Below are positions 4,804 through 30,341 of a DNA stretch of 30,341 bases, piece by piece (position 1 is the first letter of the stretch; every line of letters starts with the position of its first letter). Position numbers and translations under genes: made by a program. Origin of the DNA: Sumerlaeia bacterium. GTDB taxonomy: Bacteria > Sumerlaeota > Sumerlaeia > SLMS01 > JAHLLQ01. The stretch covers positions 1 to 30,341 of the forward strand of contig JAVJSW010000020.1 of assembly GCA_040219255.1 (NCBI GenBank). The letters are read 5' to 3'. The notes under the pieces are model-generated. The model was not told where the DNA came from, searched no databases, and saw only the letters and a program-made list of their open reading frames with translations.

Positions 4804-5048
4804 TCACCACAGAGTCACAGAGAGCACGGAGATTGTTGTTTTTACTTGGGTTGCGTGTTCGATCGGGAAGTGGGGCTAGTCTCTTGATAAAAGGGGGGGC
4901 AAGAGAGCGAGAATCACGAGTGATGGACGATTGGTGCAACCGCATAGAGCATTCATTTTATTGTGATTCCATGAGTATGGCTGGATTTCCCCACCCGGTT
5001 TCCCATGTACCTCTGTGAAACCTCCATCCTCTGCGATCTCTGTGGTTA
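4804..5048. repeat. Imperfect inverted-repeat element built from CACAGAG/CTCTGTG units (MITE/REP-like)
   Basis: Left arm TCACCACAGAGTCACAGAGAGCACGGAG (4804-4831). Right arm CTCTGTG...CTCTGCG..CTCTGTGGTTA (5011-5048). They enclose a lower-GC spacer. A related arm is at 23520-23549. Confidence 0.55.
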
Positions 5049-5114
5049 GCCCTTTCCCATTGAGCCCGGCGCCGCCTGCGGCTTGCTTCGGCGTGCGGAA
5101 TTCCGCCGGGCCTT

Positions 5115-7112: not shown

Positions 7113-7165
7113 ATCACGGGCCCGAAACGGGGCCATCGACCTGCGAAGTATGAGATTGAGGTTTG

Positions 7166-7645
7166 GGTGGAGAAGACTTGCGGGGGCGCCCCCGAGTTTT
7201 CCACAGGCCATGGGGAAAAGTTTCTGCTGAGCCCCTGTTTTTCCCCACTTGACAGGTTCTTATCCTCAAAGGATTCAATCGTCTGTCAAGTTTTCCACAA
7301 CCCCTGTGGGAAACTCTCGTCTGGGGAGAAGTCCTGTGGGGAAAAATTCCCCTGCGAGGCCCGTGCGCTCGTTCCAGGTCGCACGTAAGTCAAGTTTCGG
7401 GAACCGTGCGTAAGTTCTTCACAAACCCGCTGGGAATTCTCCACAGGCGCCTGTGTAAAAGGGGATAAGTTAAGCGTTCCGTGGGCTTTAAACAGGTTTT
7501 CCACAGGCTGTCCCCAGCGGATTCACCCCGCTTCCCCTTAACCCATCCCTCACAAACCCCGCCCCAGCCAGGACCTCCGCCGTTCCTCCCCAATTTCACA
7601 GGCCCTAATACGGATACTATAGCTGTTAAGATCCTGTTTAAAACC
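7166..7645. other. Probable chromosomal replication origin (oriC)
   Basis: Non-coding gap between convergent genes. Perfect TTWTNCACA boxes at 7197-7205, 7291-7299, 7497-7505 (+) and 7452-7460 (-). One-mismatch boxes at 7211-7219, 7239-7247, 7260-7268, 7305-7313, 7337-7345, 7415-7423, 7437-7445. Ends with TCCTCCCCA/AATTTCACA-GGCC-CTA ATA CGG ATA CTA and an AT-rich tract (7584-7643). Confidence 0.82.
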
Positions 7646-8842: not shown

Positions 8843-9012
8843 CAAGGAAGAAATGCCCCGTCCGGCCGGGTTCGAACCTTCAGGTCCTGCCCGCGTCCCA
8901 CTCTGGTCTTGAATTTCAGCAAGTGGGATGCGGTGGGCAGGCAGGCCACCTTGACAACTACGCCAGATCAGCGTCTTGTTGGTTATCCTCGACCTAACTT
9001 GGAGCTTTAACC

Positions 9013-12000: not shown

Positions 12001-13158
12001 GTGATCAAGACGACCGACAGCGGCCGCTCCTGGACCCGGACCGCGGCTGAGGACACCAGCGATCGCTATGGGTTGGAAATGGTCGATGCCCAAGTCGGCT
12101 GGCGTTACCGCATCGACGGTAGCGCCGTCGAAGTCACCACCGATGGCGCCGATTCCTTCACGCCGGTGACCTCGCCCACGTCGGATGCTCCTGTGCGCAT
12201 TCAAGCCTTCGCGGCGCTGGACGACCAGATCGCCTGGTTCGCCGGGGACGACGGCGTGACGGGCAAAACGACCGATGGCGGCGCGACCTGGGACGTGACC
12301 ACGCGGCTTTTCGGTGGCAGCGAAACGCACTGGGGCGTGATCGCGTTCCAGGATTGTCTCGGCGGCTTGATTGCCGGGACCAAACCACGCCAGGAGGGCA
12401 CCGACATCGGCACCCCGGTGCTGATTCAAACCATGACCGGCGATTTCGAGACCGCTCCCGTGACGACCTTTGGCGTGACGAACCACCGGATCCGCACCGC
12501 CGATTCGGTCGATTCGCTGAACATCTGGGCCTACGGCGATCTCGGATTCGGGACCAAGTTCGGGGCGGCGTCGGATGCGTTGGCAATCACGACACCGGAC
12601 CTGCTCGCGGGCGATCAGGGCGTCGCCTATCAGGGCCAGTTGACCGCGGCAAACGGCACGGGAACCCTGACGTGGCAGGTCTGCGGCGGGGCCCTGCCCG
12701 ATGGCATGACGCTCGAACCCGGCGGCGCGCTCAGCGGCACGCCCACCGAGGGCGGCCATTTCCGCTTCATCGCCGGCGTGGTGGACGAATCGGGCCAGAC
12801 AGCGGGGAGGCGCTACTTCCTGGCGATTCGCCCGGCGAACTCGCCCGAGATCACCACCGCCAGCCTGCCCGGCGGGATGCTCGGCGAACCGTACTCGCTG
12901 CCCCTCGAAGCCACCGGAGGCCAACCGCCCTACACCTGGCGCGTCGTCGAGGGCGACTTGCCGCGCGGTCTCGACCTCGTCAGCTTCGGAGGCCTCGGCG
13001 GCATCCCCTCCGTCCCCGGCGAATACCGCCTGACCCTGGAAGTCCGCGACGACGCCTCGCCCCAAGGCTTCGACCGCCAGCCTTTCGTTCTCACCATCGG
13101 CGGCATGACGACGCAGGACGTGGCGGCCGAGCCGGAGGTGGGGTGGGTGATGCGGTAG
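9013..13158 (+). CDS. Large secreted protein with YCF48/BNR (Asp-box) beta-propellers and putative Ig (He_PIG-like) domains
   Basis: Signal peptide ending AQA-A. About 18 T-x-D-G-G-x-T-W Asp-box repeats. Two pairs of Ig-like repeats (GG..PYTW....G.LP.GL.L...G.L.G.P). GGAG RBS. Confidence 0.85.
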   Translation: MRKRSLRTAFSAVFAALMSVCAVPAQAAWRELPLPKLATDRVLSISFIDDDRGFVLTGTFDWELYYTGDSGETWEKRSEGEDVEAFSPVGKIHFLDENTGFFTPGDTFNSVLLKTTDGGRTWEVVDTPLMGTSDDPDVENMFWVDAITGWINGRGETEEGDRFSLARTEDGGATWTPVFSLIRNTASSMYFDKEGLGCYVLDFPGGIVVSRDGGTSWTIPAFDEMGSLKALHFRDNQTGWAGGDGGVLLRTTNGGLNWQSAAPGNVGRVQAILATREGPVYVGTFQAGGGHFLITDDNGITWRRQNTPKYPVAGGASFVNVQTIIQTPGGKILAGGERLFVRVEGDEPVIKPVVPPSGTRGVRYEYTFRTRGGVEPMTWTSSRDLPPGLSLDAATGRVSGTPTNAAPPFDLTVTDSEGRTDTLVSVSIPIRGEVLSFLASDLPDATHRRTYREPLAIEGGVRPFTFRVLNGALPRGMDVDSNGILAGAPQELGEFQFSIEVTDSNSIPQRITRELSLTVGPSQESGWDVQHAQNRITSIHFFDDQSGLATSWSGALIRTDNGGRTWDIEGRVEVFNSEIYDAAWHGETGLLAANAGIHRTTDRGRTFELTAQADQEPVGSVAPLVRFARNGLAFLLNDRLVRSADDGQTWAATQTPADYTGQFWDVEFIDETTGYATGEFKGFFKSTDGGLTWQREPIAGLTDDDTIPNEVWLFGLEAIGDKIWVGATLAEFAQGIKVYRTEDAGETWIEESVLPSSGAPMEIDFADDGLRGWMGGFGRSRFSYTTNGGDSWGGANTWRNDVNPTEFTFLDDGVTGWVVLNQAGRSVNNSLADMQGTIWKTTDGGRTMERQFGFALDSEVLSQVGRESQANYPGPNLLAVSFPTDSVGYALALDPVFESLNTANLLKTTTAGATWEFVTEVRGGSRILFTTEQHGWLYHPEDIGNPIYETRDGGLNWFPRIDIYSGGTFNKILPSVGWDDMVFLNDQVGWISVAGSVIKTTDSGRSWTRTAAEDTSDRYGLEMVDAQVGWRYRIDGSAVEVTTDGADSFTPVTSPTSDAPVRIQAFAALDDQIAWFAGDDGVTGKTTDGGATWDVTTRLFGGSETHWGVIAFQDCLGGLIAGTKPRQEGTDIGTPVLIQTMTGDFETAPVTTFGVTNHRIRTADSVDSLNIWAYGDLGFGTKFGAASDALAITTPDLLAGDQGVAYQGQLTAANGTGTLTWQVCGGALPDGMTLEPGGALSGTPTEGGHFRFIAGVVDESGQTAGRRYFLAIRPANSPEITTASLPGGMLGEPYSLPLEATGGQPPYTWRVVEGDLPRGLDLVSFGGLGGIPSVPGEYRLTLEVRDDASPQGFDRQPFVLTIGGMTTQDVAAEPEVGWVMR

Positions 13159-13191
13159 GGGCGGACCGGCATTGACCCCGCGTTTTTCCTC

Positions 13192-13217
13192 AAGAAGAGA
13201 TAAAGCAATCTCTTCTT
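13192..13217. promoter_or_regulatory. Perfect 10-bp inverted repeat upstream of the PLD gene (operator or hairpin)
   Basis: AAGAAGAGAT-aaagca-ATCTCTTCTT, ending 31 nt before ATG 13249. Confidence 0.4.
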
Positions 13218-13248
13218 CGATCCAGAAACGGAAGCGGGTTCCCAACCG

Positions 13249-13983
13249 ATGGCGAAATTCCTGAATACTTCGGCGACAACTTATCACCTGGAGGAGCTGA
13301 TCAAGCAGGCCCGCGAGCGCCTGATTCTGATCAGCCCGTTCCTGCGATTTAACGAACGCATCCGTGAACTGCTCGAGGACCAGAACCGCCTCAAGATCGA
13401 CATCCGCGTCGTATACGGCAAGAGCGAGCTGCAACCGGAGGAAATCGCCTGGCTGAAATCGCTGGAGTTCGTGCGCTTGAGTTTCTGCAAGAACCTCCAC
13501 GCCAAGTGCTATCTCAACGAGCAGAAGGCCATCGTGACCTCGATGAACCTTTACGAGTTCTCGCAGGTGAACAACAACGAGATGGGCATCCTGATGGAGC
13601 GCGACGCGGACGGGCCACTGTTCCTGGAAACCTACCAGGAAGCGCAGCGCCTGATTCGCGTCAGCGAGGAAGTGAAACTGTCGGTGGAGCGGGTCTCGCC
13701 CGGACAGGAAGCGGCGACGGCCCCCGCCTCCGCCGCCGAGGAGGAGGACGAGGGCGATTCGGCCGGGCAGGCGGGCCAGTTCCTGTCCACAACGCGGCTG
13801 GCGAAGTCCCTCGACTTGAAGCCCAAGGATCTCTTCACCAAGCTTCAGGAGGCGGGCTGGATTGACCGCGCGGGGGATAAATGGGTCCTGACGGCGAAGG
13901 GCAAAGAGGCGGGGGGCGAGACGCGCTTCAGCCGCCAGTATGGAGAGTTCATCGTGTGGCCGACGGGGATCCGAGTGCCGTAG
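13249..13983 (+). CDS. Phospholipase D-family (single HxK) nuclease-like protein with C-terminal winged-HTH/antirepressor-like domain
   Basis: LILISPF, LHAKCYLNE (HxK), IVTSMN and NNNEMGI motifs. Acidic linker, then LSTTRLAKSLDLKPKDLFTKLQEAGWI...WVLTAKGKEAGG. Confidence 0.8.
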   Translation: MAKFLNTSATTYHLEELIKQARERLILISPFLRFNERIRELLEDQNRLKIDIRVVYGKSELQPEEIAWLKSLEFVRLSFCKNLHAKCYLNEQKAIVTSMNLYEFSQVNNNEMGILMERDADGPLFLETYQEAQRLIRVSEEVKLSVERVSPGQEAATAPASAAEEEDEGDSAGQAGQFLSTTRLAKSLDLKPKDLFTKLQEAGWIDRAGDKWVLTAKGKEAGGETRFSRQYGEFIVWPTGIRVP

Positions 13984-14078
13984 GGCACCTGTGAGGTTGC
14001 CTGAACGTTCCCCTGACCATCTTTGATCCGCACTTCGATAAACCCACGCTGCCGGTCCTCCTCGTCCGATGGGAGGGC

Positions 14079-14267
14079 TCACTTCCGGCCTTCGTCGCGG
14101 GCCGACAGAATTTCCGTCACGGTGGCGCCACCGCCTTGGGCGACGACCTCGTTTCTCAGCTCTCGGATTTGGGTCACGAAATCCAAAGCCTGTTGCCGCT
14201 GGTCTTGAGTTGTGTGCGAGCCGGTGCGCTCGCTGGTGCGGAGGGAGTCGTCCTTGTCTGCTTTCAT
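14079..14267 (-). CDS. Small protein resembling a type II antitoxin (orphan)
   Basis: 62 aa with AAGGAG RBS. C-terminus IRELRNEV...TVTEILSARDEGRK resembles the tails of VapB/Phd-like antitoxins. Confidence 0.5.
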   Translation of the reverse strand: MKADKDDSLRTSERTGSHTTQDQRQQALDFVTQIRELRNEVVAQGGGATVTEILSARDEGRK

Positions 14268-15327: not shown

Positions 15328-15656
15328 GGGCGGGGCGAGAGGGCGGGTGAGTTAGGACATGTGAGGGAAGCGTGGGCAACGCTAGAAATTAAAGGGAATT
15401 TTTGCTTGCGCTCTAATCGTGAGAAAAAGAACCACCGAGCAATCCAAGTGAATTTACCCACTCAATGACGCTGCATGCCATGGGAAAAAACGAAAAGCAG
15501 ACGGCGATCGATCCCAGGTTCGCGATTTTTTCCCTTCGCGGGGATACCGCTCCCGGGCAACCGCCCAATGTGTTCAGGATCGCTTGGTGGCTGGACGAAT
15601 GGCGGAGACCGTTCCTCTCGTTCCTTAATACTCCTTGGAAGAGGAAGTGTCAGAAT

Positions 15657-16982
15657 ATGAGTTGTAAAGAACTTCGCCCGCCCATTGGCCCGCTCGTGGG
15701 GTTGCTTATCGCGTTTCTGTGTGCAAGTGTGGCGCGCTCGGAGGAAGACGATCAGGCCGCATTGAAGAAGATCTTTGAAACGATCATCGTGGAGTCGGAA
15801 ATCGATCCGACACCCATCTATGCGGAAATGCTCATCAGAAAGCACCAGCCCGCCTATACCCTCGATGATTTTCCCATTGAAGAGAACAAGCTCGCTGGCA
15901 ACGAACGAAGGTTTCGTCAAATGCTGGCCGAGCGCTTCTCGGTCAACTTTGAAATCGAGCCTTTGAACCAGTTCGAAGCGGTCAAAGTCTATCTCGAGGG
16001 TGGCCTTGAGCGCAAGGATCAGGCTCTCGTCGACGAGGAGCAATTCGCCGCTCTCCTGGCGACCGGAGATTTCAGTCAGCTCGAGTTCGAGAAATACTAC
16101 GAGGAAGGTTCAAAGACCACGGCCATACTTGACGTCGGACCGAACCAGCATCATCCGCAAGCGGTCATTTCTGGGATCGGCCTGGAAGTGCCTCCTGTCC
16201 GTCAGTTCGGTGGGTTCCTCACAAAACCTCAATATCTCCAGGGGCTGACCGGACTCCTGGATTCCTTCGAATTCATATCAGCAGAAACGGAATTGGGTAC
16301 GCGCATCGTGGCCCACCGACACGATATGACCCTGTCCACTATCGAAGTGCTCTTCGACTGGGAACTTTATCCAAAGTTGAAGCACATCACGCTGTTCGGG
16401 GCGCCTTCCATCGTCACGGAAGAGATCTCCTATGCCGATTATCGCGAAGTGAAGAAAGGGCTTAACTTGCCCTTTTACGTGAAGAGAACACGTTACGCTC
16501 CATCGCCCGATCCGCCGGCGCCCGGCGCCGAGTTGGATAAAGTGCCGCAAAAGATAAGCTACGTGGAAGAAATCTACGTGACGAAGCTGAACGTCGATGT
16601 GGCGCACGACGAGGACACCTTTGTCCCCGACCTGTATGCAGGAATACAGGTTTATGACGAATCCGGCGATGAAGTGAAGCAATACATTGTCCCGGGCAAG
16701 GTCGAGGAAAAGGACATCGCCATGGCTCAGAAGCAAATTCTGGCCATGGATGTGGAAACTGAAGAGGAAGTCGAGCCGAGTCGAGCGGAGCTGGCCAATT
16801 CGCCCACCGCGGGTCCGCCTCAGTCTGCTTCACTCGGCGAGGGCATGCGGCTTGCGTTGGAAGACCGGAAAACCTGGACAGGGCAAGTCACACGGCTCAT
16901 TCTCCTGCTGTCCATACCGCTTGTCCTGATTTCCACACTCCTCGCCTGGCGGAGGAAGAAACGAGCCTCCTCTCTTTCATAG
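15657..16982 (+). CDS. Hypothetical exported protein with C-terminal TM anchor
   Basis: Likely start MSCKELRPP with a signal peptide (VGLLIAFLCASVARS), acidic body, and C-terminal LILLLSIPLVLISTLLAW-RRKKR. Lower GC than the flanks. Confidence 0.7.
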   Translation: MSCKELRPPIGPLVGLLIAFLCASVARSEEDDQAALKKIFETIIVESEIDPTPIYAEMLIRKHQPAYTLDDFPIEENKLAGNERRFRQMLAERFSVNFEIEPLNQFEAVKVYLEGGLERKDQALVDEEQFAALLATGDFSQLEFEKYYEEGSKTTAILDVGPNQHHPQAVISGIGLEVPPVRQFGGFLTKPQYLQGLTGLLDSFEFISAETELGTRIVAHRHDMTLSTIEVLFDWELYPKLKHITLFGAPSIVTEEISYADYREVKKGLNLPFYVKRTRYAPSPDPPAPGAELDKVPQKISYVEEIYVTKLNVDVAHDEDTFVPDLYAGIQVYDESGDEVKQYIVPGKVEEKDIAMAQKQILAMDVETEEEVEPSRAELANSPTAGPPQSASLGEGMRLALEDRKTWTGQVTRLILLLSIPLVLISTLLAWRRKKRASSLS

Positions 16983-21186: not shown

Positions 21187-21762
21187 ATGAGCATCGTCCA
21201 CGCCAAGTTCTCCCTCGCGGATTACCATCGGATGATCGACGCGGGGATTCTGGACCATCGCAAGGTGGAATTGATCGAGGGAGAAATCGTCGAAATGAGT
21301 CCGAGTGGCCCGCCCCATATTCGCGCCATTATGAACCTGCTCGAGGCCTTCGCCGGGCTCGTGGCCGCGCAGCACGCGTCGCTGCTTTGCCAGAGCGGTC
21401 TCGCCATTCCCGATCAGGACTCCTGCCCGGAACCCGATTTGGCGCTGGTGACCTATGGCCTGGGTCGCAGCGACAATGCCATCGAGGCCACGCAGGCCTT
21501 CGCCGTCATCGAAGTCGCCGACTCCACCCTCGCCACCGACCGCCGGGTTAAACTCCCCCTCTACGCCCGGGCCGGCATCGCCGAGTTCTGGATCGTGAAC
21601 TTGATCGACGACTGCATCGAGGTGTACCGCGCACCGGATCAGACATCGGGAACGTACAGCGAGAAACGTATTGTACGTCGCGGCGAGAGCGTTTGCCTCC
21701 TGGCCTTTCCTGATTTCGAGGTCGCCGGCTCGGCCATTCTGCCCCGCAAGGAGGCGCCCTGA
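21187..21762 (+). CDS. Uma2/DUF820 family PD-(D/E)XK endonuclease-like protein, copy 1
   Basis: VELIEGEIVEMSP..P.H, PEPD, IEVADST...DR.VKLPLYARAGIAEFWIVNL; AGGAG RBS. Confidence 0.92.
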   Translation: MSIVHAKFSLADYHRMIDAGILDHRKVELIEGEIVEMSPSGPPHIRAIMNLLEAFAGLVAAQHASLLCQSGLAIPDQDSCPEPDLALVTYGLGRSDNAIEATQAFAVIEVADSTLATDRRVKLPLYARAGIAEFWIVNLIDDCIEVYRAPDQTSGTYSEKRIVRRGESVCLLAFPDFEVAGSAILPRKEAP

Positions 21763-22354
21763 CCATGACCACGCTGACCAGGACCGCCAAGTTCTCCCTC
21801 GCGGATTACCACCGGATGATCGACGCGGGAATTCTGGACCATCGCAAGGTGGAGTTGATCGAGGGAGAAATCGTTGAAATGAGCCCGAGCGGAGACCCGC
21901 ATTACTTCTCGATTTGGGACATGCTGATTCTGTTTCAGGAGCATGTTCCCCAGCAAGGCTTTGTCACCGTATCGCAATCACCGATCGCACTGCCCAAGCA
22001 AGATTCCGAGCCCGAACCCGATTTTTACGTCGCACGAAAGGTCCTGCCGGGACGCCAGACAAAGCCGACCCCGGAAAGCCTCGTCCTTGTCGTCGAAGTG
22101 TCGGAATCGACCCTCGCCTATGACCGCCGGGTCAAACTCCCCCTCTACGCCCGGGCGGGCATCGCCGAGTTCTGGATCGTGAACTTGATCGACGACTGCA
22201 TCGAGGTGTACCGCAGCCCCGATCAGACATCCGGCACCTACGCCGAGAAACGTGTCGTCGCCCGCGGCGAATCCATCCACCCCCTCGCCTTCCCGGACTT
22301 CGAAGTTCACGCCTCCGCCATTCTGCCCCGCAAGGAGGCGCCCTGACCATGACC
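21733..22354 (+). repeat. Identical 38-bp direct repeat at Uma2 gene junctions (21733-21770 and 22317-22354)
   Basis: GCCATTCTGCCCCGCAAGGAGGCGCCCTGACCATGACC occurs twice, 584 bp apart. Confidence 0.9.
21765..22346 (+). CDS. Uma2/DUF820 family protein, copy 2
   Basis: Same motifs (EPEPD, VEVSEST, DRRVKLPLYA). RBS AAGGAGG is embedded in the end of copy 1. Confidence 0.92.
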   Translation: MTTLTRTAKFSLADYHRMIDAGILDHRKVELIEGEIVEMSPSGDPHYFSIWDMLILFQEHVPQQGFVTVSQSPIALPKQDSEPEPDFYVARKVLPGRQTKPTPESLVLVVEVSESTLAYDRRVKLPLYARAGIAEFWIVNLIDDCIEVYRSPDQTSGTYAEKRVVARGESIHPLAFPDFEVHASAILPRKEAP

Positions 22355-22933
22355 GTTGCTGCGACGCGGGCGCGATTTGGCGTCCAGGACTACTACAAAA
22401 TGATCGAGGCCGGGGTCTTTGAAGACCGGCGGGTGGAGTTGCTGGATGGAGAAATCGTCGAAATGAGCCCGAGCGAGAACCCCCACCACTTCACCGTCCA
22501 CCGCATTGCCCGGCTGTTTCGGGCGCTCGAGGCGCGGCACGGGCTTTACACTTTTGTCCAAAGCCCCTTCGCGATCCCCGATCAAGCCTCCGAACCCGAG
22601 CCCGACCTCTATGTGACGCGCGCTTCGCTCCTCGACCAGGCAGAGCAGAAGGCCGGGCCGCAGGACGTGCTGCTCCTGATCGAAGTTGCCGATTCCTCCC
22701 TGCGCAAAGACCGCATGGACAAGCTCCCCCTCTACGCCCGCGCCGGCATCGCCGAGTTCTGGATCGTGAACCTGGCCGAGGACTGCATCGAGGTGTACCG
22801 CTCGCCGGACCAAGCTATGGGGGTTTACGGTGAAGAGCGCATCATCGCCCGCGGGGAGGCAATTTGTCCTAAGGCTTTCCCTGAATTCTCGGTCGCCGCG
22901 AACGTCATCCTGCCCAACAGAGGAGACGAGTAA
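22349..22933 (+). CDS. Uma2/DUF820 family protein, copy 3
   Basis: VELLDGEIVEMSP, EPEPD, IEVADSS, DRMDKLPLYA. Confidence 0.92.
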   Translation: MTVAATRARFGVQDYYKMIEAGVFEDRRVELLDGEIVEMSPSENPHHFTVHRIARLFRALEARHGLYTFVQSPFAIPDQASEPEPDLYVTRASLLDQAEQKAGPQDVLLLIEVADSSLRKDRMDKLPLYARAGIAEFWIVNLAEDCIEVYRSPDQAMGVYGEERIIARGEAICPKAFPEFSVAANVILPNRGDE

Positions 22934-22935
22934 CG

Positions 22936-23517
22936 ATGTCCACCCTGACAAAGACCGCCCTTTTCTCCCTTTCCGATTATTATCTGATGATCGATGCGGG
23001 GATTCTGGAGAACCGAAAAGTCGAGTTGATCAAGGGAGAAATCGTCGAAATGAGCCCGAGCGGAAATCTCCACTACCTGACGATTGGCCGCATCGCGGCG
23101 CTGTTCATCCCGCTCACCGCCAAGCACGGCTTGATCGGCTATCAGCAATCCGGCCTCGCCATCCCGGAACTCGACTCCGAGCCGGAGCCGGATTTTTACC
23201 TCATTTCTCAGACGATCCTCGATGGCGAAGTCAAAGCCGAGCCGGAACAAGCCTTCCTGGTTGTCGAAGTCGCCGACTCCTCTCTGCGCAAAGACCGCAT
23301 GGTTAAACTCCCCCTCTACGCCCGGGCCGGCATCGCCGAGTTTTGGATCGTGAACTTGGCCGAGGACTGCATCGAAGTGTACCGCGTCCCGGACCGTGCG
23401 GCGGGAGCCTATGGCGATCAGAAATCCTATCGCCGGGGTGATCGGTTCGCGCTGCTTGCATTTCCCGATTTCGAGGTGGCGGCGGATGCGGTTCTGCCGC
23501 GCAGCCCCCAAGCCTGA
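22936..23517 (+). CDS. Uma2/DUF820 family protein, copy 4
   Basis: VELIKGEIVEMSP, EPEPD, VEVADSS, DRMVKLPLYA. Confidence 0.92.
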   Translation: MSTLTKTALFSLSDYYLMIDAGILENRKVELIKGEIVEMSPSGNLHYLTIGRIAALFIPLTAKHGLIGYQQSGLAIPELDSEPEPDFYLISQTILDGEVKAEPEQAFLVVEVADSSLRKDRMVKLPLYARAGIAEFWIVNLAEDCIEVYRVPDRAAGAYGDQKSYRRGDRFALLAFPDFEVAADAVLPRSPQA

Positions 23518-25993: not shown

Positions 25994-26770
25994 TCACGAC
26001 AGGCGCTTCGTATCGTTCAGCGACCAATCGTAATCCATCGCTTTGATGTCCGTCTTTGGCGTCACGTTGGACGCCAGATCGCTGGGCAGATAGGGCGTCA
26101 GGAACCGCACCAGGGCGTCGTCGGTGCCGCCGAAGTCTTCCTGGAAATGGGTGAAGATCCAGGACACGCGCAGGTCGCCATCGGGTTCGAGCCGGGCGCC
26201 TTTCTGCTCGTTCGCGAGCCACGCATGCATTTGCTCGTCCAGTTGGGCGCCGAGGTGGCTGGCCGTGTAGGCTTCGCGGCGCAGGTCGGGGCAACTGACC
26301 GATGCGCAATTGATGGCAGCGTGGATGCGGGGTTCGCCCATAGGGCGCAGGATCGAGTGCTCGATCTCGTCGAGCGTCACCTCGCGGCCGCCCACGGTTC
26401 CAGCGGGGCGTTTCCACACCGGTTTGAACAGCGATCCGATGTCGCGGATGCTCTCGACCGGGTATTCTTTTAGGACAACTTCAATGGCCAGAATGTTGTA
26501 CGCGTTGATCCAGTAGGCCAACCGGGCGTCGCGTTCGGCCGGTTCCGGGTCCGTGGCCAGCTTCGACAGGAGCAGACTCCAGCGCGGATCGGACTTGATC
26601 GCCGCGTAATCCACCGCCACGAGGGGCACGCCATCGATGGCGCCCTCGCGGGTGTGGTCCTTCAGCATGGCGGTCCAGGTGTCCGCCAGCGTGCGGCGCG
26701 GCGGGATGTCCTGGGCCGGGGCGGCCATGGCAAAGGCCAGGAGCAAAAAAAGAAGAACGAAGCGTAGCAT
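25994..26770 (-). CDS. DUF547 domain secreted protein
   Basis: Signal peptide; VDYAAI, LAYWINAYN, TLDEIEHSILR, EPRIHAAINCASVSCPDL, S.IF..F.EDF, YDWSLN. Confidence 0.88.
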   Translation of the reverse strand: MLRFVLLFLLLAFAMAAPAQDIPPRRTLADTWTAMLKDHTREGAIDGVPLVAVDYAAIKSDPRWSLLLSKLATDPEPAERDARLAYWINAYNILAIEVVLKEYPVESIRDIGSLFKPVWKRPAGTVGGREVTLDEIEHSILRPMGEPRIHAAINCASVSCPDLRREAYTASHLGAQLDEQMHAWLANEQKGARLEPDGDLRVSWIFTHFQEDFGGTDDALVRFLTPYLPSDLASNVTPKTDIKAMDYDWSLNDTKRLS

Positions 26771-26905
26771 GGAAACCGACCGATCGGTGCGAAATTCGGC
26801 GGCGCGGGAAGTACCGCCGGGTCCTTTGACAAGGCCGGCGGAGAAAAGGATCCCGCCCCCCTACGGAAAAGCCGATGACCGCGCCGCGCCGCATTTTGAC
26901 AGGCC

Positions 26906-28720
26906 TCACCGATAACGGCTCGCCTGCACCTCGAACATCTCGGCGTAAATCCCGCCCCGCGCCACCAATTCGTCGTGCGATCCCTCCTCGGCCACGCGCC
27001 CCTCGTGCAGCACATAAATGCGATCGGCGATGCGGACCGACGAGAGGCGATGGCTGATCAGGAGGGCGGCGCGGCCCCGCAGCAGCTCGCGGGCGCGGGC
27101 GAAGAGTTCGGCTTCGGCGCGTGGGTCCAGGGCGCTGCTCGGTTCGTCCAGGACGATGACCTGGGCGTCCTCGCGCAGGAACGCCCGGGCGAGAGCCACC
27201 TTCTGCCATTGGCCCAGGCTCAGCTCGGCGCCGTCCTCCAGGTACTTGCCCAGTGGCGTGTCGTAGCCCCTCGGCAGCCCCCGCAGCACCGGGTCGGCGC
27301 CCGAGTCGCGGGCGGCGGCGGCGATGCGCTCGGCGGGCGGCGGGGGTTCGAGGCCTTCGCCGATGGCGATGTTCTCCGCCGCCGTCATGTCGTAACGGAC
27401 AAAGTCCTGCGTCACGGCCCCGAACAGGCGCCTCAACGGCACCGGGTCGTAGGCCGGGAGCGGCTCGCCGTCCAGGGTGACGCGCCCCTCTTGAGGGTCG
27501 TAAAGCCGCGCCAGGAGGCGGGCCACGGTGGATTTGCCGGCGCCGTTTTCGCCCACCAGGGCCACGATCTCCCCCGGCCCGACGCGGAGGCTGGCGCCAT
27601 CGAGGGCGAAGCGAGTGCTGCCCGGATAGCGAAAGCGCACGTCCTCCAGCGCCAGGCCCCGCGCCATCGGCCTGGGCACCGGCAGCGGGCTAGCGGGGCG
27701 GCGGATGCGCGGTTCCTGCGCCAGGAAATCGCGGAACAACGCCAGGAAGAGTTGGTTTTCATAAAGCATGGCCCCGCCCCGCAGCAGGTCCGCCAGCGAG
27801 GTCTGGCCCCGCTGGATCGCCCCCAGCACCAGCACCAGGGTGCCCAGCGTGATGGCCCCCGCGGCGGTATCGCGCACCGCCCACCAGAGGAGGGCGAAGA
27901 CCACGGCGACGGCCGCGAGCTGGGCCGCGAAGTCGGCCGCCGCGCGCCGGCCGTGGAGCGACAAGCGCTCGCGGAAGAGCTGGCGCCGCAGGGTTCGGAA
28001 CCGCTCGGCGAAGGTCCCGCCCAGGCCGTACAGGCGCACCTCCTGGGCATAGCGCGTCAGCCGCAGCAGCATGTCGTAGTAATCCGCCCGGCGTTCCGTG
28101 GCGGCTTGCCGCCGCGCCAGATCGTAGCCCCGCCGCGAGTACCACAGCCGAACCGCCAGCCCCGGCACCCCCGCCAACGCCAGCAGCGGCACCGCCTCCC
28201 ATCGCCATTGCCCGATCAGCACCGCCAGGCCGGCCACCGTGATGCCCGTGCGGGCGGTCTGGGCCAGCCCCGTCACGATCTGCAGGGGTTTCGTCAGGGC
28301 CTGGGTCTGGGCCAGGCGCAGATTGTCGAAATGGGCGGGGTCTTCGAAGAAGGCCAGGTCGAGCGCCACCGACTGGGCGTGGACCCGCGCGCAGAGATCG
28401 TCGGTGACGAAGTGGGCCTGGGCCTGCTGCACCACACCCGCCAGCGCCGACACCAGGAAGCCGGCCGCCAGCACGCCCGCCAGCGCGGCAAGCAGCAGGC
28501 CGGCGCGCGGCGCCTCGCCGCCCTCAATGGCCCGCGTCAGCTCGTCCACCAGCAGTTTCGCCAGCGCCAGCGCCGCCAGGGGCAGGAGGCCCTGGAGCAG
28601 GAGCAGAGCGCCATTGGCGAGAAAGAGGCGGGGCGCGGGACGCCAGACGAGGCGGATCGCGTAAAGCAGGGAATAAAAAAAACGCTTCCCTTTTGGGGAA
28701 GCGGAAAAAAGTGAGGTCAT
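26906..28720 (-). CDS. ABC exporter, fused permease/ATPase, probable RiPP (lasso peptide) transporter
   Basis: N-terminal TM domain, Walker A GENGAGKST, Q-loop, signature LSLGQWQK, Walker B IVLDEPSS, ISHRLS. Starts 42 nt after the precursor stop. Confidence 0.9.
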   Translation of the reverse strand: MTSLFSASPKGKRFFYSLLYAIRLVWRPAPRLFLANGALLLLQGLLPLAALALAKLLVDELTRAIEGGEAPRAGLLLAALAGVLAAGFLVSALAGVVQQAQAHFVTDDLCARVHAQSVALDLAFFEDPAHFDNLRLAQTQALTKPLQIVTGLAQTARTGITVAGLAVLIGQWRWEAVPLLALAGVPGLAVRLWYSRRGYDLARRQAATERRADYYDMLLRLTRYAQEVRLYGLGGTFAERFRTLRRQLFRERLSLHGRRAAADFAAQLAAVAVVFALLWWAVRDTAAGAITLGTLVLVLGAIQRGQTSLADLLRGGAMLYENQLFLALFRDFLAQEPRIRRPASPLPVPRPMARGLALEDVRFRYPGSTRFALDGASLRVGPGEIVALVGENGAGKSTVARLLARLYDPQEGRVTLDGEPLPAYDPVPLRRLFGAVTQDFVRYDMTAAENIAIGEGLEPPPPAERIAAAARDSGADPVLRGLPRGYDTPLGKYLEDGAELSLGQWQKVALARAFLREDAQVIVLDEPSSALDPRAEAELFARARELLRGRAALLISHRLSSVRIADRIYVLHEGRVAEEGSHDELVARGGIYAEMFEVQASRYR

Positions 28721-28762
28721 GGCGCGGGGACGTTCAGCGGGGATTGCCTCCGCCGGTGCGGC

Positions 28763-28936
28763 TTAGCTGGTGATATCGCCCAGCGGATCGGGATCCGTTG
28801 GGTCGATGGGGGTCCCGATCGGCACGTCGATCTTGGTCCGGTTGTTGTTCATCATCGTCAGCTCAGCCACGTTCCCATGCTTCACGAGAATGGGAGCTGC
28901 GTAGGCCTTCTTGGCAGTGGCTTCGGGGGTATTCAT
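28763..28936 (-). CDS. Lasso-type RiPP precursor 1 (57 aa; not in ORF track)
   Basis: Translated by hand: MNTPEATAKKAYAAPILVKHGNVAELTM|MNNNRTKIDVPIGTPIDPTDPDPLGDITS*. Leader Y-17, P-14, L-12, G-8, T-2; Asp at core position 9. Confidence 0.85.
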   Translation of the reverse strand: MNTPEATAKKAYAAPILVKHGNVAELTMMNNNRTKIDVPIGTPIDPTDPDPLGDITS

Positions 28937-29222
28937 GTGGACACCGTTCGTTTGGGGTATCGTTACGAGCGATTATTTACGGAATTTCACGGAGGAGTGT
29001 AAAGCGGGAAAAATGTCATGCCACAACTGGCGCGCATTTTTCCCGGAAACTCCGCGAAAAAATCCCAACGCATCCCAATCGGGGACGCGCTTCGCCTAAC
29101 GATTACGCCTCAGACGGCGTCCTTGTCAACCGGGCAATGCCCCGGCGGCGTTCACAAAACTTGGAATCCGGCACCTCGCTCGTCTTCTCCGGCGGAGACA
29201 CGCCGGCTTCTTGTCACGAATC

Positions 29223-29301
29223 GCGACCCTCCCCTTTCGGGGGGGGCTGCGGGTCGCTGGGAAAAACGGGTCGGGGTTCGCTTTGCGGGGAAAGCCCCGC
29301 A
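29223..29301 (-). terminator. Two hairpins downstream of precursor 2 (stabiliser or attenuating terminator)
   Basis: TGCGGGG-CTTT-CCCCGCA (29284-29301) and GCGACCC..CCCC-GAAA-GGGG.GGGTCGC (29223-29257). Confidence 0.45.
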
Positions 29302-29309
29302 GGCGCGGT

Positions 29310-29483
29310 TCAACTGGTGATATCGCCGAGCGGATCCGGAGAGTCGAGGTCGATGGGCGTACCCACGGGCACGTCGACCTTCGTTCGGTTATTGTTCATC
29401 CTCGTCAACTCGGCGATCTTGCCGTGCTTCAGGAGAACGGGAGCCCGGTAGGCTTTTTTGAGGGGTGCTTGGAGAGTCTTCAT
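29310..29483 (-). CDS. Lasso-type RiPP precursor 2 (57 aa)
   Basis: C-terminal part of track ORF 29310..29879: MKTLQAPLKKAYRAPVLLKHGKIAELTR|MNNNRTKVDVPVGTPIDLDSPDPLGDITS*. Same length and leader motif as precursor 1. Confidence 0.85.
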   Translation of the reverse strand: MKTLQAPLKKAYRAPVLLKHGKIAELTRMNNNRTKVDVPVGTPIDLDSPDPLGDITS

Positions 29484-29902
29484 TTCGACACCATCCAGGG
29501 TGGGCATCGGGACTACGAAAAATCGTGGAATTTTCGGCTCATGCTCTATGGGAGAAGTGCGCAAATCGCCGGGCCTGCGCCCCTCGATACGGCACTCCTC
29601 AGCCAAACGTTCTACCAGAAGCCACCGTCCCCACCAAGAAGAATCGCCTTTCTCGTCTAAGCCCATCGTTCTCAAGAACCCGCGAGCCCCCATGGGGCGA
29701 TGCGAAAAAAGGGACGTTTTTTTTGCAATTTTCCACCCGCTCCGGCGTCTATAGTAGGTGAAGGGAGTCCGCCGGAGAAAAGTCTCACGGCTGCTCAGCG
29801 GCGTGTGGATTTCGCCGGTGGACTCGCAACCTGTCTTGTAACATCCGCCGCTTTCGGGCGTCATGACACCGAACGGCACTTCTCCCGGAAGGAGATCTCC
29901 CT

Positions 29903-30341
29903 ATGACACGCCGCGGCCCTCGGGCCTTCACCCTCATCGAACTTCTCATCACTGTCGCCATCATCGCCATTCTGGCGGCCATCGCCGTGCCCAACTTTCT
30001 CGAAGCCCAAACCCGCGCCAAGGTCAGCCGCGTCAAGAACGACCTGCGCACCCTGGCCACCAGCATCGAAGCCTACACCGTCGACAACAACCGCCCGCCC
30101 TACGATGGCGAGCCGGGCACCGATCATTATGGCTGGGCCTCGATCTTCGCCCAGGTCACCACGCCGGTCGCCTACCTGACCACCATCCCGACCGATGTTT
30201 TCCAGGACGACGGCCTGCCCGACGCCGCCCGCCCGGGCCAGAGCAACTACGTCAACGGCCGCCACTCCTACGATTACGCCACGGCCTACTGGGAGGACCT
30301 TGACGGGATCGCTGGCAAGGTCCTAGATCGGAAGAGCACAC
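29903..30341 (+). CDS. Prepilin-type N-terminal cleavage/methylation domain protein (partial, runs off window)
   Basis: GGAAGGAG RBS; MTRRGPRA|FTLIELLITVAIIAILAAIAVPNFLEAQTRAKVSRVKNDLRTLATSIEAYTVDNN...VTTPVAYLTTIPTDVF. No stop before the edge. Confidence 0.9.
   Translation, partial: MTRRGPRAFTLIELLITVAIIAILAAIAVPNFLEAQTRAKVSRVKNDLRTLATSIEAYTVDNNRPPYDGEPGTDHYGWASIFAQVTTPVAYLTTIPTDVFQDDGLPDAARPGQSNYVNGRHSYDYATAYWEDLDGIAGKVLDRKST

What the first reader, a model, noticed from the sequence alone, without database searches (positions are those of the whole stretch)
26906..29483. Twin lasso-type RiPP precursors with an unusual Met1/Asp9 core, next to an ABC exporter
Seen: two 57-aa minus-strand ORFs (28763-28936, 29310-29483) whose cores match at 24/29 aa and leaders at 17/28 aa, followed 42 nt later by a fused ABC exporter. 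Established: YxxPxL (RRE-binding) plus G-8 and T-2 is the lasso leader signature, and the ring closes between residue 1 and Asp/Glu 7-9. Inference: a 9-residue Met1-Asp9 macrolactam with a 20-aa Pro/Asp-rich tail. Residue 1 is usually Gly, Cys, Ser or Ala, so Met is atypical, and the core has no aromatic plug residue. This is plausibly an uncharacterised RiPP family from a poorly sampled phylum.
Basis: partly seen in the sequence, partly recalled or inferred. Interest (0 to 1): 0.88.

Follow-up and report, generated by a model that had tools for sequence, protein, structure and literature searches.

The report
Twin lasso-peptide precursors, enzymes encoded elsewhere
Two small neighbouring genes encode precursors of a knotted "lasso" peptide of a known, phosphate-decorated type and sit beside their export pump, while the enzymes that should mature them lie at three other places in the genome, an arrangement that ordinary genome mining would overlook.

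Summary
Both peptides pass NCBIfam's lasso leader model NF033521. They belong to a family of about 50 unannotated peptides with an invariant Thr(-2), Asp at core position 8 or 9 (51 of 52) and a C-terminal Ser (44 of 52). In a Rivularia genome a homologue lies inside a complete paeninodin-type lasso cluster: B1, B2, cyclase, HPr-kinase-like kinase, NTP-transferase and ABC exporter. Seven of 8 further cyanobacterial loci also have the cyclase adjacent. The window holds no maturation enzyme. The genome has exactly one of each on other contigs: a cyclase (C68), B1 plus NTP-transferase (C13), and a B2 domain fused to a YfhO-like membrane protein plus the kinase (C49). All of them are unusually GC-rich. 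This is therefore a new member of the known kinase-associated lasso class, not a new RiPP family. Met1 fits a family in which residue 1 is variable. The missing plug may be replaced by C-terminal phospho-glycosylation, which is inferred. The dispersed layout is the notable feature. No product or transcript was shown.

The parts
29310..29483 (-). Precursor B, 57 aa plus stop. Leader is 29400-29483 (aa 1-28, with Y12-x-x-P15-x-L17, G21, T27). Core is 29313-29399 (Met29 to Ser57, Asp37 = core residue 9).
   Evidence: NF033521 scores 19.2 bits (cut-off 19) and NF033528 28.1 bits (cut-off 33).
28763..28936 (-). Precursor A, 57 aa plus stop. Leader is 28853-28936, core 28766-28852 (MNNNRTKID ring segment, Pro/Asp-rich tail, C-terminal Ser57).
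   Evidence: NF033521 scores 25.0 bits (cut-off 19) and NF033528 31.1 bits (cut-off 33). dN/dS against B is 0.21.
26906..28720 (-). Fused (TMD + NBD) ABC exporter, 604 aa, with no peptidase domain. It is the presumed exporter and self-protection pump (the 'D' gene).
   Evidence: It is 42.6% identical over 591 aa (E 7.5e-139) to the ABC gene inside the Rivularia lasso cluster and is that gene's best match in this genome. It is 36% identical to the ABC gene in metagenome locus L054 and 38-53% identical to the one in G009. GC is 71.5%, the 99.8th percentile of 1.8-kb windows.
29067..29091 (-). Terminator-like hairpin plus T-run between precursor B and precursor A.
   Evidence: The fold is -16.4 kcal/mol with z -1.76, and 11 of 200 shuffles fold as well. 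This is weak.
28673..28703 (-). Strong hairpin (8-bp stem) followed by T8, lying inside codons 6-16 of the ABC gene. It is a candidate attenuator that would give more precursor mRNA than exporter mRNA.
   Evidence: The fold is -14.1 kcal/mol with z -4.58, and 0 of 200 shuffles fold as well. The function is inferred.

Best explanation
The two ORFs are duplicated precursors of a class II lasso peptide of the kinase/NTP-transferase-associated (paeninodin-like) kind, transcribed ahead of their dedicated ABC exporter.

Proposed pathway. Every step is inferred from homology; none was shown for this organism.
1. The RRE protein B1 (C13:34343-34660) binds the YxxPxL leader.
2. The B2 cysteine-protease domain cuts after residue 28, two residues past Thr27. 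This domain is residues about 705-853 of an 853-aa YfhO-like membrane protein at C49:45740-48301.
3. The Asn-synthetase-like cyclase (C68:194870-196705) joins the new Met29 amino group to the Asp37 side chain, giving a 9-residue macrolactam with a 20-residue tail.
4. The HPr-kinase-like kinase (C49:44838-45731) phosphorylates the C-terminal Ser57.
5. The PF14907 NTP-transferase (C13:33259-34359) may add sugar to the phosphate.
6. The ABC pump exports the product.

The bulky C-terminal decoration, rather than an aromatic side chain, would keep the tail threaded. The pathway genes were probably acquired together and now sit in four separate places, so maturation works in trans.
For: Leader: both peptides pass NF033521. 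Their best whole-peptide hit is NF033528 'lasso_cyano', aligned over residues 9-37.

Family: a scan of 1.84 billion representative proteins and a profile search gave 54 short relatives, of which 52 could be parsed. Thr(-2) is fixed in these by the parsing rule. Asp is at core position 9 in 42 and at position 8 in 9, and is absent in 1, a double-leader oddity. C-terminal Ser occurs in 44 of 52. Residue 1 takes 12 different values. A D-V-P-x-G-T-P motif follows the ring. These peptides are related to each other, so the counts are not independent.

Context elsewhere: the Rivularia locus L018 has B1 (NF033536 82.6 bits, cut-off 80), B2 (98 bits, cut-off 33), a cyclase (NF033535 962 bits, cut-off 525), the precursor (NF033528 35.3 bits, cut-off 33), two kinases, an NTP-transferase and an ABC exporter. 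Seven of 8 further cyanobacterial loci have the cyclase beside a leader-homologous precursor. Every precursor read in those 8 loci has Asp at core position 9, except one of the three in L111, where it is at position 10, and residue 1 is variable.

Own genome: there is one PF13471/NF033537 domain (87.6 bits, cut-off 33) with Cys784 and His818 conserved. There is one lasso-type cyclase, whose best family is NF033535 at 307.8 bits. It has SGGLDS, lacks the N-terminal Cys, and groups with lasso cyclases at 100/100 support. There is one B1 that is 46-49% identical to Rivularia B1. The kinase lies directly downstream of the B2 gene. No other lasso-leader peptide was found in the genome.

Link between loci: the ABC gene, the cyclase and the NTP-transferase each fall at or above the 99.8th GC percentile. 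B1, B2 and the kinase are at 67.9-68.7% GC against a genome value of 63.6%. The cyclase has no orthologue in 40 relatives apart from true lasso cyclases in one of them.

Parallel case: a same-family genome, G009, also has precursor + ABC on one contig and kinase-B1-B2 on another.

Selection: dN/dS is 0.21.

Predicted B1-precursor complex: weak support only. Score 0.57, best of 3 controls 0.01. The mark was reached by 58 of 80 solved complexes and 2 of 110 mismatched pairs. At 0.60 or under it was reached by only 7 of those 80 and by both mismatches that passed. The runs agree in at least 96% of contacts, and the partner's pLDDT is at least 54. Lasso RRE-leader complexes have been solved, so the pass may reflect likeness only.

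Literature: the C-terminal Ser of paeninodin and pseudomycoidin is phosphorylated by the HprK-like kinase, PsmN adds hexose, and the authors suggest the bulky group may help hold the thread (PMC6993621 passages; PMC8498205 passages).
Against: - No maturation enzyme lies in the 30-kb contig. Co-localisation is the usual rule.
- The cyclase sits on a very long branch (1.87) and scores well below NF033535's cut-off (307.8 against 525). The B1 is below its cut-off (60.2 against 80). Either could be diverged or serve another substrate.
- B2 is in frame with a conserved membrane-protein gene that lacks B2 in all 10 same-family genomes. The fusion has no counterpart among 5.8 billion proteins. It could be a stop-codon loss or an assembly error, and the protease may be misplaced.
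- Both peptides miss the NF033528 cut-off.
- Among the closest (DVPxG-type) relatives outside this genome, only 1 of 9 loci has a clear cyclase next to it. One has a weak Asn-synthase-like hit, 3 are cut or too short, and 4 have none within the stretch read, about 12 to 20 kb of each locus.
- The tail has no bulky residue, and a 9-membered ring normally needs one.
- No transcript or product data exist.
- The assembly is a 92%-complete MAG in 83 contigs, so true distances between the loci are unknown for C20 and C13.
Confidence: 0.6

Rival explanations
1. The peptides are matured without macrolactam formation. They would be leader-cleaved, phosphorylated (and perhaps glycosylated) linear peptides, like the linear polyphosphorylated peptides (LPPs) described in 2026. 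The leader would be removed by the signal-peptidase-I/PqqD fusion protein on contig C42, or by B2. The conserved Asp-Val-Pro-x-Gly-Thr-Pro would then be a recognition motif, not a ring acceptor.
For: - The genome encodes a 245-aa S24/SpI-like peptidase fused to a PqqD domain (TIGR04353 35.3 bits, cut-off 35; TIGR02228 39.3 bits, below its cut-off) that has no precursor of its own nearby.
- LPP clusters share the HprK-like kinase, the NTP-transferase, an MsbA-like pump and a YxxP leader with the same Tyr-to-Thr spacing (PMC13381572, sections 6, 7 and 9 read).
- Several relatives in this phylum have B1-B2-precursor-kinase-NTP-transferase clusters with no cyclase in the stretch read.
- The tail has no plug.
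Against: - LPPs are phosphorylated on Ser3 of the core. Here core residue 3 is Asn, and the conserved Ser is C-terminal, as in lasso peptides.
- The LPP motif YxxPxVLxHQxIxFETxxS is only partly matched.
- The Asp keeps a distance of 8 or 9 from the cut site in 51 of 52 members, which is the range a lasso ring allows.
- Homologous precursors lie beside true cyclases in 8 loci.
- The genome keeps an accessory, intact lasso-type cyclase that has no other candidate substrate.
Confidence: 0.15
2. The locus is a stranded remnant. A once-compact lasso cluster was broken up, and the precursors and pump are no longer matured, or the pump has been kept only for immunity or another export task.
For: - The pathway is split over four contigs.
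- The cyclase sits on a long branch.
- The B2 is fused to an unrelated conserved gene.
- No close relative of the precursors was found in 40 related genomes with the two-peptide profile.
- Orphan precursors without nearby enzymes also occur in Motilibacter (L106, L107) and in one cyanobacterium (L114).
Against: - All seven genes are open and full length.
- The catalytic Cys and His of B2 and the SGGLDS motif of the cyclase are kept.
- Both precursor copies have been held under purifying selection over a long divergence (dS 0.89, dN/dS 0.21), although part of that could predate the break-up.
- The kinase start overlaps the B2 stop as in an operon.
- The precursor + pump module recurs in a same-family genome.
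Confidence: 0.15
3. Another RRE-dependent enzyme set of the genome modifies these peptides, so the product is not a lasso. The candidate is the C37 cluster: PqqD, a P-loop kinase-like protein, PF14907 and a PqqD-radical-SAM/SPASM protein.
For: The C37 cluster has two PqqD domains and a radical SAM/SPASM enzyme, and no precursor was recognised beside it.
Against: - The core has no Cys or other usual rSAM/SPASM cross-link partner pattern.
- The C37 proteins are not the homologues of the enzymes next to related precursors: Rivularia B1, kinase and NTP-transferase hit C13, C49 and C73, not C37.
- My motif scan would miss a non-lasso leader next to C37.
Confidence: 0.05

Closest known systems
Paeninodin (Paenibacillus dendritiformis) and pseudomycoidin (Bacillus pseudomycoides): phosphorylated or phospho-glycosylated class II lasso peptides. 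Cluster genes are A, C, B1, B2, K (HprK-like), N (NTP-transferase, pseudomycoidin only) and D.
   Same: - The same gene set is present in the genome: A x2, D, C, B1, B2 domain, K and N.
- Ring from residue 1 to an acidic residue at position 9.
- Pro/Asp-rich tail.
- C-terminal Ser, which is the phosphorylation site in both characterised peptides (PMC6993621; PMC8498205).
   Different: - The genes are in four unlinked places instead of one cluster.
- The leader has YxxP, whereas paeninodin-like Bacillota leaders have WxxP (PMC13381572 section 9).
- Residue 1 is Met rather than Ala.
- There is no aromatic residue in the tail.
- B2 is fused to a YfhO-like membrane protein.
- Sequence similarity to these two peptides themselves was not measured here, because their sequences were not fetched.
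NCBIfam NF033528 'lasso_cyano' precursors with NF033535 'lass_lactam_cya' cyclases (cyanobacterial lasso clusters, bioinformatic families; e.g. Rivularia locus L018)
   Same: - These are the best-scoring families for both the precursor and the cyclase.
- Rivularia precursor: leader, Asp acceptor, DVPIGTP motif and a C-terminal '...DITGS' resembling the window's '...GDITS'.
- ABC pump 42.6% identical and B1 46-49% identical.
   Different: - The window peptides (31.1 and 28.1 bits) and the cyclase (307.8 bits) fall below the curated cut-offs (33 and 525).
- Ring of 9 residues against 8 in Rivularia.
- Different phylum.
- Dispersed against compact layout.
Linear polyphosphorylated peptides (LPP; Popov et al. 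2026, PMC13381572)
   Same: - YxxP leader bound by a discrete RRE.
- HprK-like kinase, PF14907-type NTP-transferase and MsbA-like pump.
- The genome even has an SpI-like peptidase fused to an RRE.
   Different: LPPs have no cyclase, are cut after Thr(-1) by the SpI-like peptidase and are phosphorylated on core Ser3. Here core residue 3 is Asn, the conserved Ser is C-terminal, Asp8/9 is invariant and a lasso cyclase is present.

Membership tests
Lasso peptide precursor (RiPP class; NCBIfam NF033521 leader domain) | Leader with Y/WxxPx(L/V/I/F/A), Gly near -8 and penultimate Thr (-2) | tested here: met
   Y12, P15, L17, G21 and T27 are present in both copies. NF033521 scores 25.0 and 19.2 bits against a cut-off of 19. 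The motif definition is taken from PMC13381572 section 6 and the PMC10368454 abstract.
Lasso peptide precursor | Asp or Glu at core position 7-9 to accept the isopeptide bond | tested here: met
   Asp37 is core residue 9 in both copies. Asp is at position 8 or 9 in 51 of 52 family members.
Lasso peptide precursor | Encoded beside a lasso cyclase (C) and leader peptidase (B, or B1 + B2) | tested here: not met
   There is no such gene in the 30,341-bp contig. Single copies exist on contigs C68, C13 and C49. Homologous precursors elsewhere do lie beside C, B1 and B2.
Lasso peptide precursor | Product has an N-terminal macrolactam with a threaded tail | not testable with these tools
   This needs mass spectrometry, NMR, or carboxypeptidase and heat tests on an expressed product.
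NCBIfam NF033528 lasso_cyano | Whole-peptide score at or above the curated cut-off of 33 bits | tested here: not met
   Scores are 31.1 and 28.1 bits. The Rivularia homologue scores 35.3. This is a near miss, so the peptides are filed as neighbours of the family, not members.
Paeninodin-like (kinase-associated, C-terminally phosphorylated) lasso peptides | C-terminal Ser on the core, plus an HprK-like kinase in the pathway | tested here: met
   Ser57 is the last residue in both copies, and 44 of 52 family members end in Ser. The kinase homologue at C49:44838-45731 is 31-35% identical to the two Rivularia cluster kinases and scores 24.8 bits on TIGR04352, well below the cut-off of 200, as do the Rivularia kinases. 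The kinase is not adjacent to the precursors. Phosphorylation itself was not tested.
Lasso cyclase (NF033535 / Asn-synthetase-like, no glutaminase Cys) | Asn-synthase fold with SGGxDS, loss of the N-terminal Cys, and clustering with known lasso cyclases | tested here: inconclusive
   PF00733 scores 131.5 bits. NF033535 is the best family at 307.8 bits but lies below the cut-off of 525. SGGLDS is present and there is no MCG start. In the tree the protein joins lasso cyclases at 100/100 support, but on a branch of length 1.87, which the tool flags as unsure.
Lasso B2 leader peptidase (NF033537 / PF13471) | Transglutaminase-like core with catalytic Cys and His | tested here: met
   NF033537 scores 87.6 bits (cut-off 33) and PF13471 70.1 bits (cut-off 26). 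Cys784 and His818 are invariant in an alignment of 8 B2 sequences. The third triad residue could not be placed. The domain is fused to a YfhO-like protein, which is atypical.
Linear polyphosphorylated peptides (LPP) | Leader motif ending ...FETxxS with phospho-acceptor Ser3, an SpI-like leader peptidase in the cluster, and no cyclase | tested here: not met
   Core residue 3 is Asn. No SpI gene is in the window. A cyclase is present in the genome. An SpI-PqqD fusion does exist on C42.

The most novel reading that the evidence does not exclude
A complete lasso pathway operates entirely in trans from four unlinked loci: precursors + pump, cyclase alone, RRE + NTP-transferase, and a membrane-tethered B2 protease + kinase. 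It would make a plug-less Met1-Asp9 lasso whose thread is held only by a C-terminal phospho-sugar stopper. Unlinked precursor + pump modules and cyclase-less B1-B2-kinase modules recur in this small phylum, and orphan precursors occur in Motilibacter and a cyanobacterium. Dispersed lasso pathways may therefore be a regular, systematically overlooked arrangement, because mining tools rely on co-localisation.
Probability: 0.3. Interest if true: 0.6.

Novelty: new member of a known kind. Interest (0 to 1): 0.42.

Why it matters
The finding places the twin peptides in a recognised class, the kinase/NTP-transferase-decorated lasso peptides, so the high first-stage novelty claim does not hold.

Three points remain useful.
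1. No paper describing a member of the D-V-P-x-G-T-P / C-terminal-Ser branch turned up in four full-text searches. Where a source gives a name, all relatives are called 'hypothetical protein'.
2. Residue 1 is hypervariable across the branch, which suggests cyclases with unusually relaxed N-terminal specificity. That would interest peptide engineers.
3. The pathway is scattered over four loci that share a GC signature. This is a concrete test case for trans-acting RiPP maturation and for how much co-localisation-based mining misses.

If the plug-less core stays threaded only through its C-terminal decoration, it would directly test the idea raised for pseudomycoidin.

Tried and rejected
- Chance ORFs were rejected: the pair is under purifying selection and has about 50 relatives.
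- I looked for a maturation enzyme hidden in the window. The 258-aa neighbour is DUF547, with about 50%-identical orthologues in 9 of 20 relatives. None of the 7 loci read has an ABC homologue within 1.5 kb. The 332-aa neighbour has no Pfam or NCBIfam hit. The ten other large window ORFs that were scanned are housekeeping genes or have no hit.
- An assembly or binning artefact as the cause of the dispersal was not supported. The cyclase and the B2 + kinase genes lie more than 40 kb inside contigs of 338 and 241 kb. All four contigs fit the bin's tetranucleotide profile (r at least 0.991). C20 and C13 are short, however, so their true neighbours are unknown.
- A word-based homologue search with peptide A alone found only the window's own two peptides. 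A two-peptide profile found nothing convincing in 40 relatives. The 14-row profile later found homologues in 7 of 75 phylum genomes, this one included.
It was repeated with a 5-row alignment.
- The sigma-70 promoter scan found 0 sites in 26500-30341. This is not informative for this phylum.
- The hairpin after the ABC stop (26851-26868) is no better than shuffles (z +1.01) and was dropped.
- Expression: no RNA holder was listed for 26906-29600. One DNA run holds 0.29 of the words.
- Supplementary files of PMC13381572 and PMC6993621 were not seen. Their cluster tables may list related precursors.
- The C73 NTP-transferase homologue and the ORFs upstream of B1 on C13 (no family hits) were not pursued.

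Full report
**Observation.**
The window is a whole contig (G000:C20, 30,341 bp) that ends in an Illumina adapter. On the minus strand lie ORF B (29310-29483), ORF A (28763-28936) and a 604-aa ABC gene (26906-28720), whose ATG is 42 nt after the stop of A. A and B are 57 aa each. Their leaders (1-28) share 17 of 28 residues and their cores (29-57) share 24 of 29. Both carry Y12-x-x-P15-x-L17, G21, T27, Met29 and Asp37, and both end in Ser57.

DNA similarity between the copies covers only the coding part plus about 25 nt upstream and 35 nt downstream. dS is 0.89 and dN/dS is 0.21, or 0.145 for the core alone. So this is an old duplication with both copies kept as coding sequence.

**What the peptides are.**
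Both pass NCBIfam's lasso leader domain NF033521 (25.0 and 19.2 bits, cut-off 19). Both score just under NF033528 'lasso_cyano' (31.1 and 28.1 bits, cut-off 33). Pfam has nothing.

A word-based search with A found only the window's own pair. An exhaustive HMMER scan of 1.84 billion representatives with the two-row profile gave 17 hits at E up to 0.001, of which 13 besides the window's own peptide were short peptides. A profile of 14 of the short peptides then gave 51 proteins. Of the 54 short proteins in hand, 52 could be parsed with the leader rule; the other two are N-terminally cut. Among those 52:
- Asp is at core position 9 in 42 and at position 8 in 9. It is missing in one, a peptide with two leaders.
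- The last residue is Ser in 44.
- Residue 1 is N, T, S, Q, G, K, A, M, H, L, E or R.
- D-V-P-x-G-T-P follows the ring.

These peptides are related to one another, so the counts describe a family rather than independent events. Where a source names any of them, the name is 'hypothetical protein'. Met at position 1 is peculiar to the window's pair, but a variable residue 1 is the rule in the family.

**Context of relatives.**
A pattern scan of one genome per species confirmed three loci among 277 pattern matches.
- In a Rivularia MAG (L018) the 51-aa homologue (NF033528 35.3 bits, above cut-off; core QGGGNNTD-VPIGTPV...DITGS) lies in a full cluster. The cluster has a cyclase (NF033535 962 bits), B2 (98 bits), B1 (NF033536 82.6 bits), two HprK-like kinases, a PF14907-type NTP-transferase, an ABC pump and a second cyclase.
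- A Rhodothermales contig (L019) has two tandem precursors, a kinase and an NTP-transferase, and is cut upstream.
- Motilibacter deserti (L020) has an RRE, two precursors and a 417-aa protein with only a faint Asn-synthase hit.
- A metagenome scan confirmed 2 of 87 pattern matches. L054 has precursor, kinase, ABC and NTP-transferase and is cut upstream. L055 is too short to read.
- In the order of the Rivularia genome, 9 of 201 genomes have a profile hit. Of the 8 further loci fetched, 7 have a lasso cyclase beside the precursor(s). Six of those 7 also have B1, all 7 have the kinase, and 6 have the pump. Every precursor read in the 8 loci has Asp9, except one of the three in L111 (Asp10), and residue 1 is variable. 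One locus (L114) is an orphan precursor.
- Two more Motilibacter precursors (L106, L107) have no detectable enzyme within about 10 kb.

The family is therefore tied to true lasso machinery, and unlinked precursors do recur.

**The rest of the pathway in this genome.**
The window has no cyclase, B protein or RRE. The assembly is 92% complete in 83 contigs. It holds the following.
- One PF13471/NF033537 B2 domain. It forms the C-terminal 150 residues of an 853-aa YfhO-like membrane protein on C49.
- One lasso-type Asn-synthetase homologue on C68, flanked by a pilT-like gene and aroC. The other two PF00733 hits are AsnB on C70 and a 30-bit fragment on C12.
- Four PqqD domains. The one on C13 is the homologue of Rivularia B1 (46-49% identity) and is followed by a PF14907 gene.

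tblastn of the Rivularia proteins onto the genome places the kinase directly downstream of the B2 gene, with overlapping stop and start. It also shows the window's ABC gene to be the best match of the cluster pump (42.6% identity, E 7.5e-139).

B2 keeps Cys784 and His818. The cyclase has SGGLDS, lacks the glutaminase Cys, and joins the lasso cyclases with 100/100 support, though on a long branch. A genome-wide motif scan and tblastn found no other lasso-leader peptide. There is thus one set of enzymes and one pair of substrates.

**Are the four loci one system?**
- The ABC gene (71.5% GC), the cyclase (72.5%) and the NTP-transferase (72.5%) each lie at or above the 99.8th percentile of 5,820 windows of 1.8 kb (mean 63.6%, sd 3.3).
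- B1, B2 and the kinase are at 67.9-68.7% GC. The direct neighbours of the cyclase are at 60.6% and 67.4%.
- The cyclase has no orthologue in 40 relatives. The only strong hits there (E 2.8e-61 and 1.9e-59) are true lasso cyclases of one genome; three further hits are weak (E 5.0e-26 to 7.3e-21).
- The YfhO-like part has about 50%-identical orthologues in all 10 same-family genomes, and these end where B2 begins. So B2 and the kinase were inserted right behind a core gene.
- The fusion has no counterpart of similar length among 5.8 billion proteins.
- All four contigs fit the bin's tetranucleotide profile.

I read this as one acquired pathway now dispersed. This is an inference from composition and phyletic pattern.

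A parallel exists in a same-family genome. G009 has a DVPxG-type precursor ending in Ser, followed by an ABC gene 38-53% identical to the window's and by an NTP-transferase fragment. Its kinase-B1-B2 genes are on another contig. That genome is only 83% complete and is in 770 contigs.

**Mechanism.**
By homology with paeninodin and pseudomycoidin:
1. B1 binds the leader.
2. B2 cuts two residues after Thr27.
3. The cyclase links Met29-NH2 to Asp37.
4. The kinase phosphorylates Ser57.
5. The NTP-transferase may add hexose.
6. The pump exports the product.

The literature read supports the chemistry of the class. The C-terminal Ser is phosphorylated by PadeK/PsmK. PsmN is needed for hexose on the phosphate. 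The authors suggest the bulky group may help keep the thread (PMC6993621 passages). Phosphorylation occurs on the precursor before folding (PMC8498205 figure legend).

A predicted B1-precursor complex gave weak support only. The score was 0.57 against a best control of 0.01. The mark was reached by 58 of 80 solved complexes and 2 of 110 mismatched pairs. At 0.60 or under it was reached by only 7 of those 80 and by both mismatches that passed. The runs agree in at least 96% of contacts, and the partner's pLDDT is at least 54. Similar complexes have been solved, so the model may be drawing on memory.

An 8-bp hairpin with a T8 run inside codons 6-16 of the pump gene (-14.1 kcal/mol, z -4.58, 0 of 200 shuffles) could attenuate read-through from the precursor. 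This too is inferred.

**Rivals.**
- Linear polyphosphorylated peptides, described in 2026, are the main alternative. They share the YxxP leader, kinase, NTP-transferase and pump, but use a signal-peptidase-like leader peptidase, have no cyclase and are phosphorylated on Ser3 (PMC13381572 sections 6, 7 and 9). The genome does carry an SpI-like/PqqD fusion on C42 with no precursor nearby. Against this reading, core residue 3 here is Asn, the conserved Ser is terminal, Asp8/9 is invariant and a cyclase is present.
- A stranded, inactive remnant cannot be excluded. Dispersal, the long cyclase branch and the odd B2 fusion favour it. Intact genes, conserved catalytic residues and purifying selection argue against it.
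- The C37 cluster (PqqD, a P-loop kinase-like protein, PF14907 and a PqqD-rSAM/SPASM protein) is a remote candidate.

**Novelty and verdict.**
The class is known, and NCBI's annotation pipeline would already name both ORFs from NF033521. The peptides are new members of an uncharacterised branch of that class. The dispersed gene layout and the membrane-fused B2 are unusual but unproven in function. Four literature searches turned up no description of this branch or of a fully dispersed lasso pathway. In the papers read, a B-less cyanobacterial cluster is mentioned (PMC6993621). A search listing shows a paper on a citrulline-modified lasso peptide that contains the phrase 'elsewhere in the genome' (PMC12971885, listing only); I did not read what that phrase refers to there. 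Supplements were closed.

Interest is moderate (0.42). Confidence in the stated mechanism is 0.6. The narrower claim, that these are lasso-family precursors by homology, I hold at about 0.85.

Noticed in passing
window 30325-30341: The contig ends in an Illumina adapter core. The same motif in reverse complement sits at the first bases of contigs C4 and C33. This is untrimmed adapter in the assembly, and it cuts a prepilin-type gene (29903-30340, +).
   Followed up: partly
G000:C49:45740-48301 (L009:7741-10302, -): The lasso B2 protease domain is in frame at the end of a YfhO-like polytopic membrane protein. Orthologues of that protein in 10 of 10 same-family genomes lack the domain. No protein of similar length with this architecture was found among 5.8 billion. 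It may be a true membrane-tethered leader peptidase, a lost stop codon or an assembly error.
   Followed up: partly
L040 (G005:C272), L041 (G009:C110), L042 (G004:C59), L043 (G010:C201), L080 (G043:C407): Related genomes carry compact modules with B1, B2 and the kinase in all five loci, and no lasso cyclase in the stretch read. A precursor-like ORF was seen in three of them (L040, L043, L080) and the NTP-transferase in three (L040, L043, L080). The same-family cores read (G005, G010) are short (11-13 residues) with a conserved P-S-D-(I/V) motif and tails of 3-5 residues. In G005, G010 and G043 the only Asn-synthase homologues found keep the N-terminal Cys-Gly of true asparagine synthases. G004 has a cyclase-like fragment at a contig edge. 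These may be cyclase-in-trans systems or a B2-processed linear phosphopeptide type.
   Followed up: partly
G000:C42:240560-241297 (L011:8561-9298, +): A 245-aa fusion of an S24/archaeal-type signal peptidase I domain with a PqqD RRE domain, next to uvrC, with no precursor recognised nearby. It resembles a fused form of the LppS + LppB pair of the 2026 LPP paper.
   Followed up: partly
G000:C37:66078-73412 (L013:8079-15413, -): Another RRE-centred cluster: a C25 peptidase (944 aa), PqqD (128 aa), a P-loop kinase-like protein (365 aa), PF14907 (472 aa) and a PqqD-radical SAM-SPASM protein (462 aa). No precursor was identified.
   Followed up: no
window 28673-28703 (-): A terminator-like hairpin with a T8 run lies inside the first 16 codons of the ABC gene and is flanked upstream by T6. 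No alternative ATG, GTG or TTG start exists just downstream.
   Followed up: partly
L106 (G077:C235), L107 (G077:C254), L114 (G125:C140): Family-type precursors stand alone, with no lasso enzyme detectable by tblastn within about 10 kb, in Motilibacter deserti (two loci) and in one cyanobacterium.
   Followed up: partly
protein P0009 (69 aa): A peptide with two consecutive lasso-type leaders (…KKPYNTPKLIKHGTIEQIT… then …KKPYQTPILIKHGTIEHIT…) before a short Cys-containing core.
   Followed up: no
window 21187-23517 (+): Four tandem ORFs of 191-194 aa. The first is a PF05685 Uma2-family putative endonuclease. The other three were not scanned.
   Followed up: no
window 9007-14082 (-), 5046-7211 (-), 15465-16982 (+): Large ORFs of 1691, 721 and 505 aa with no Pfam hit at E up to 1e-5. 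In a 64% GC genome some long frames may be spurious.
   Followed up: no
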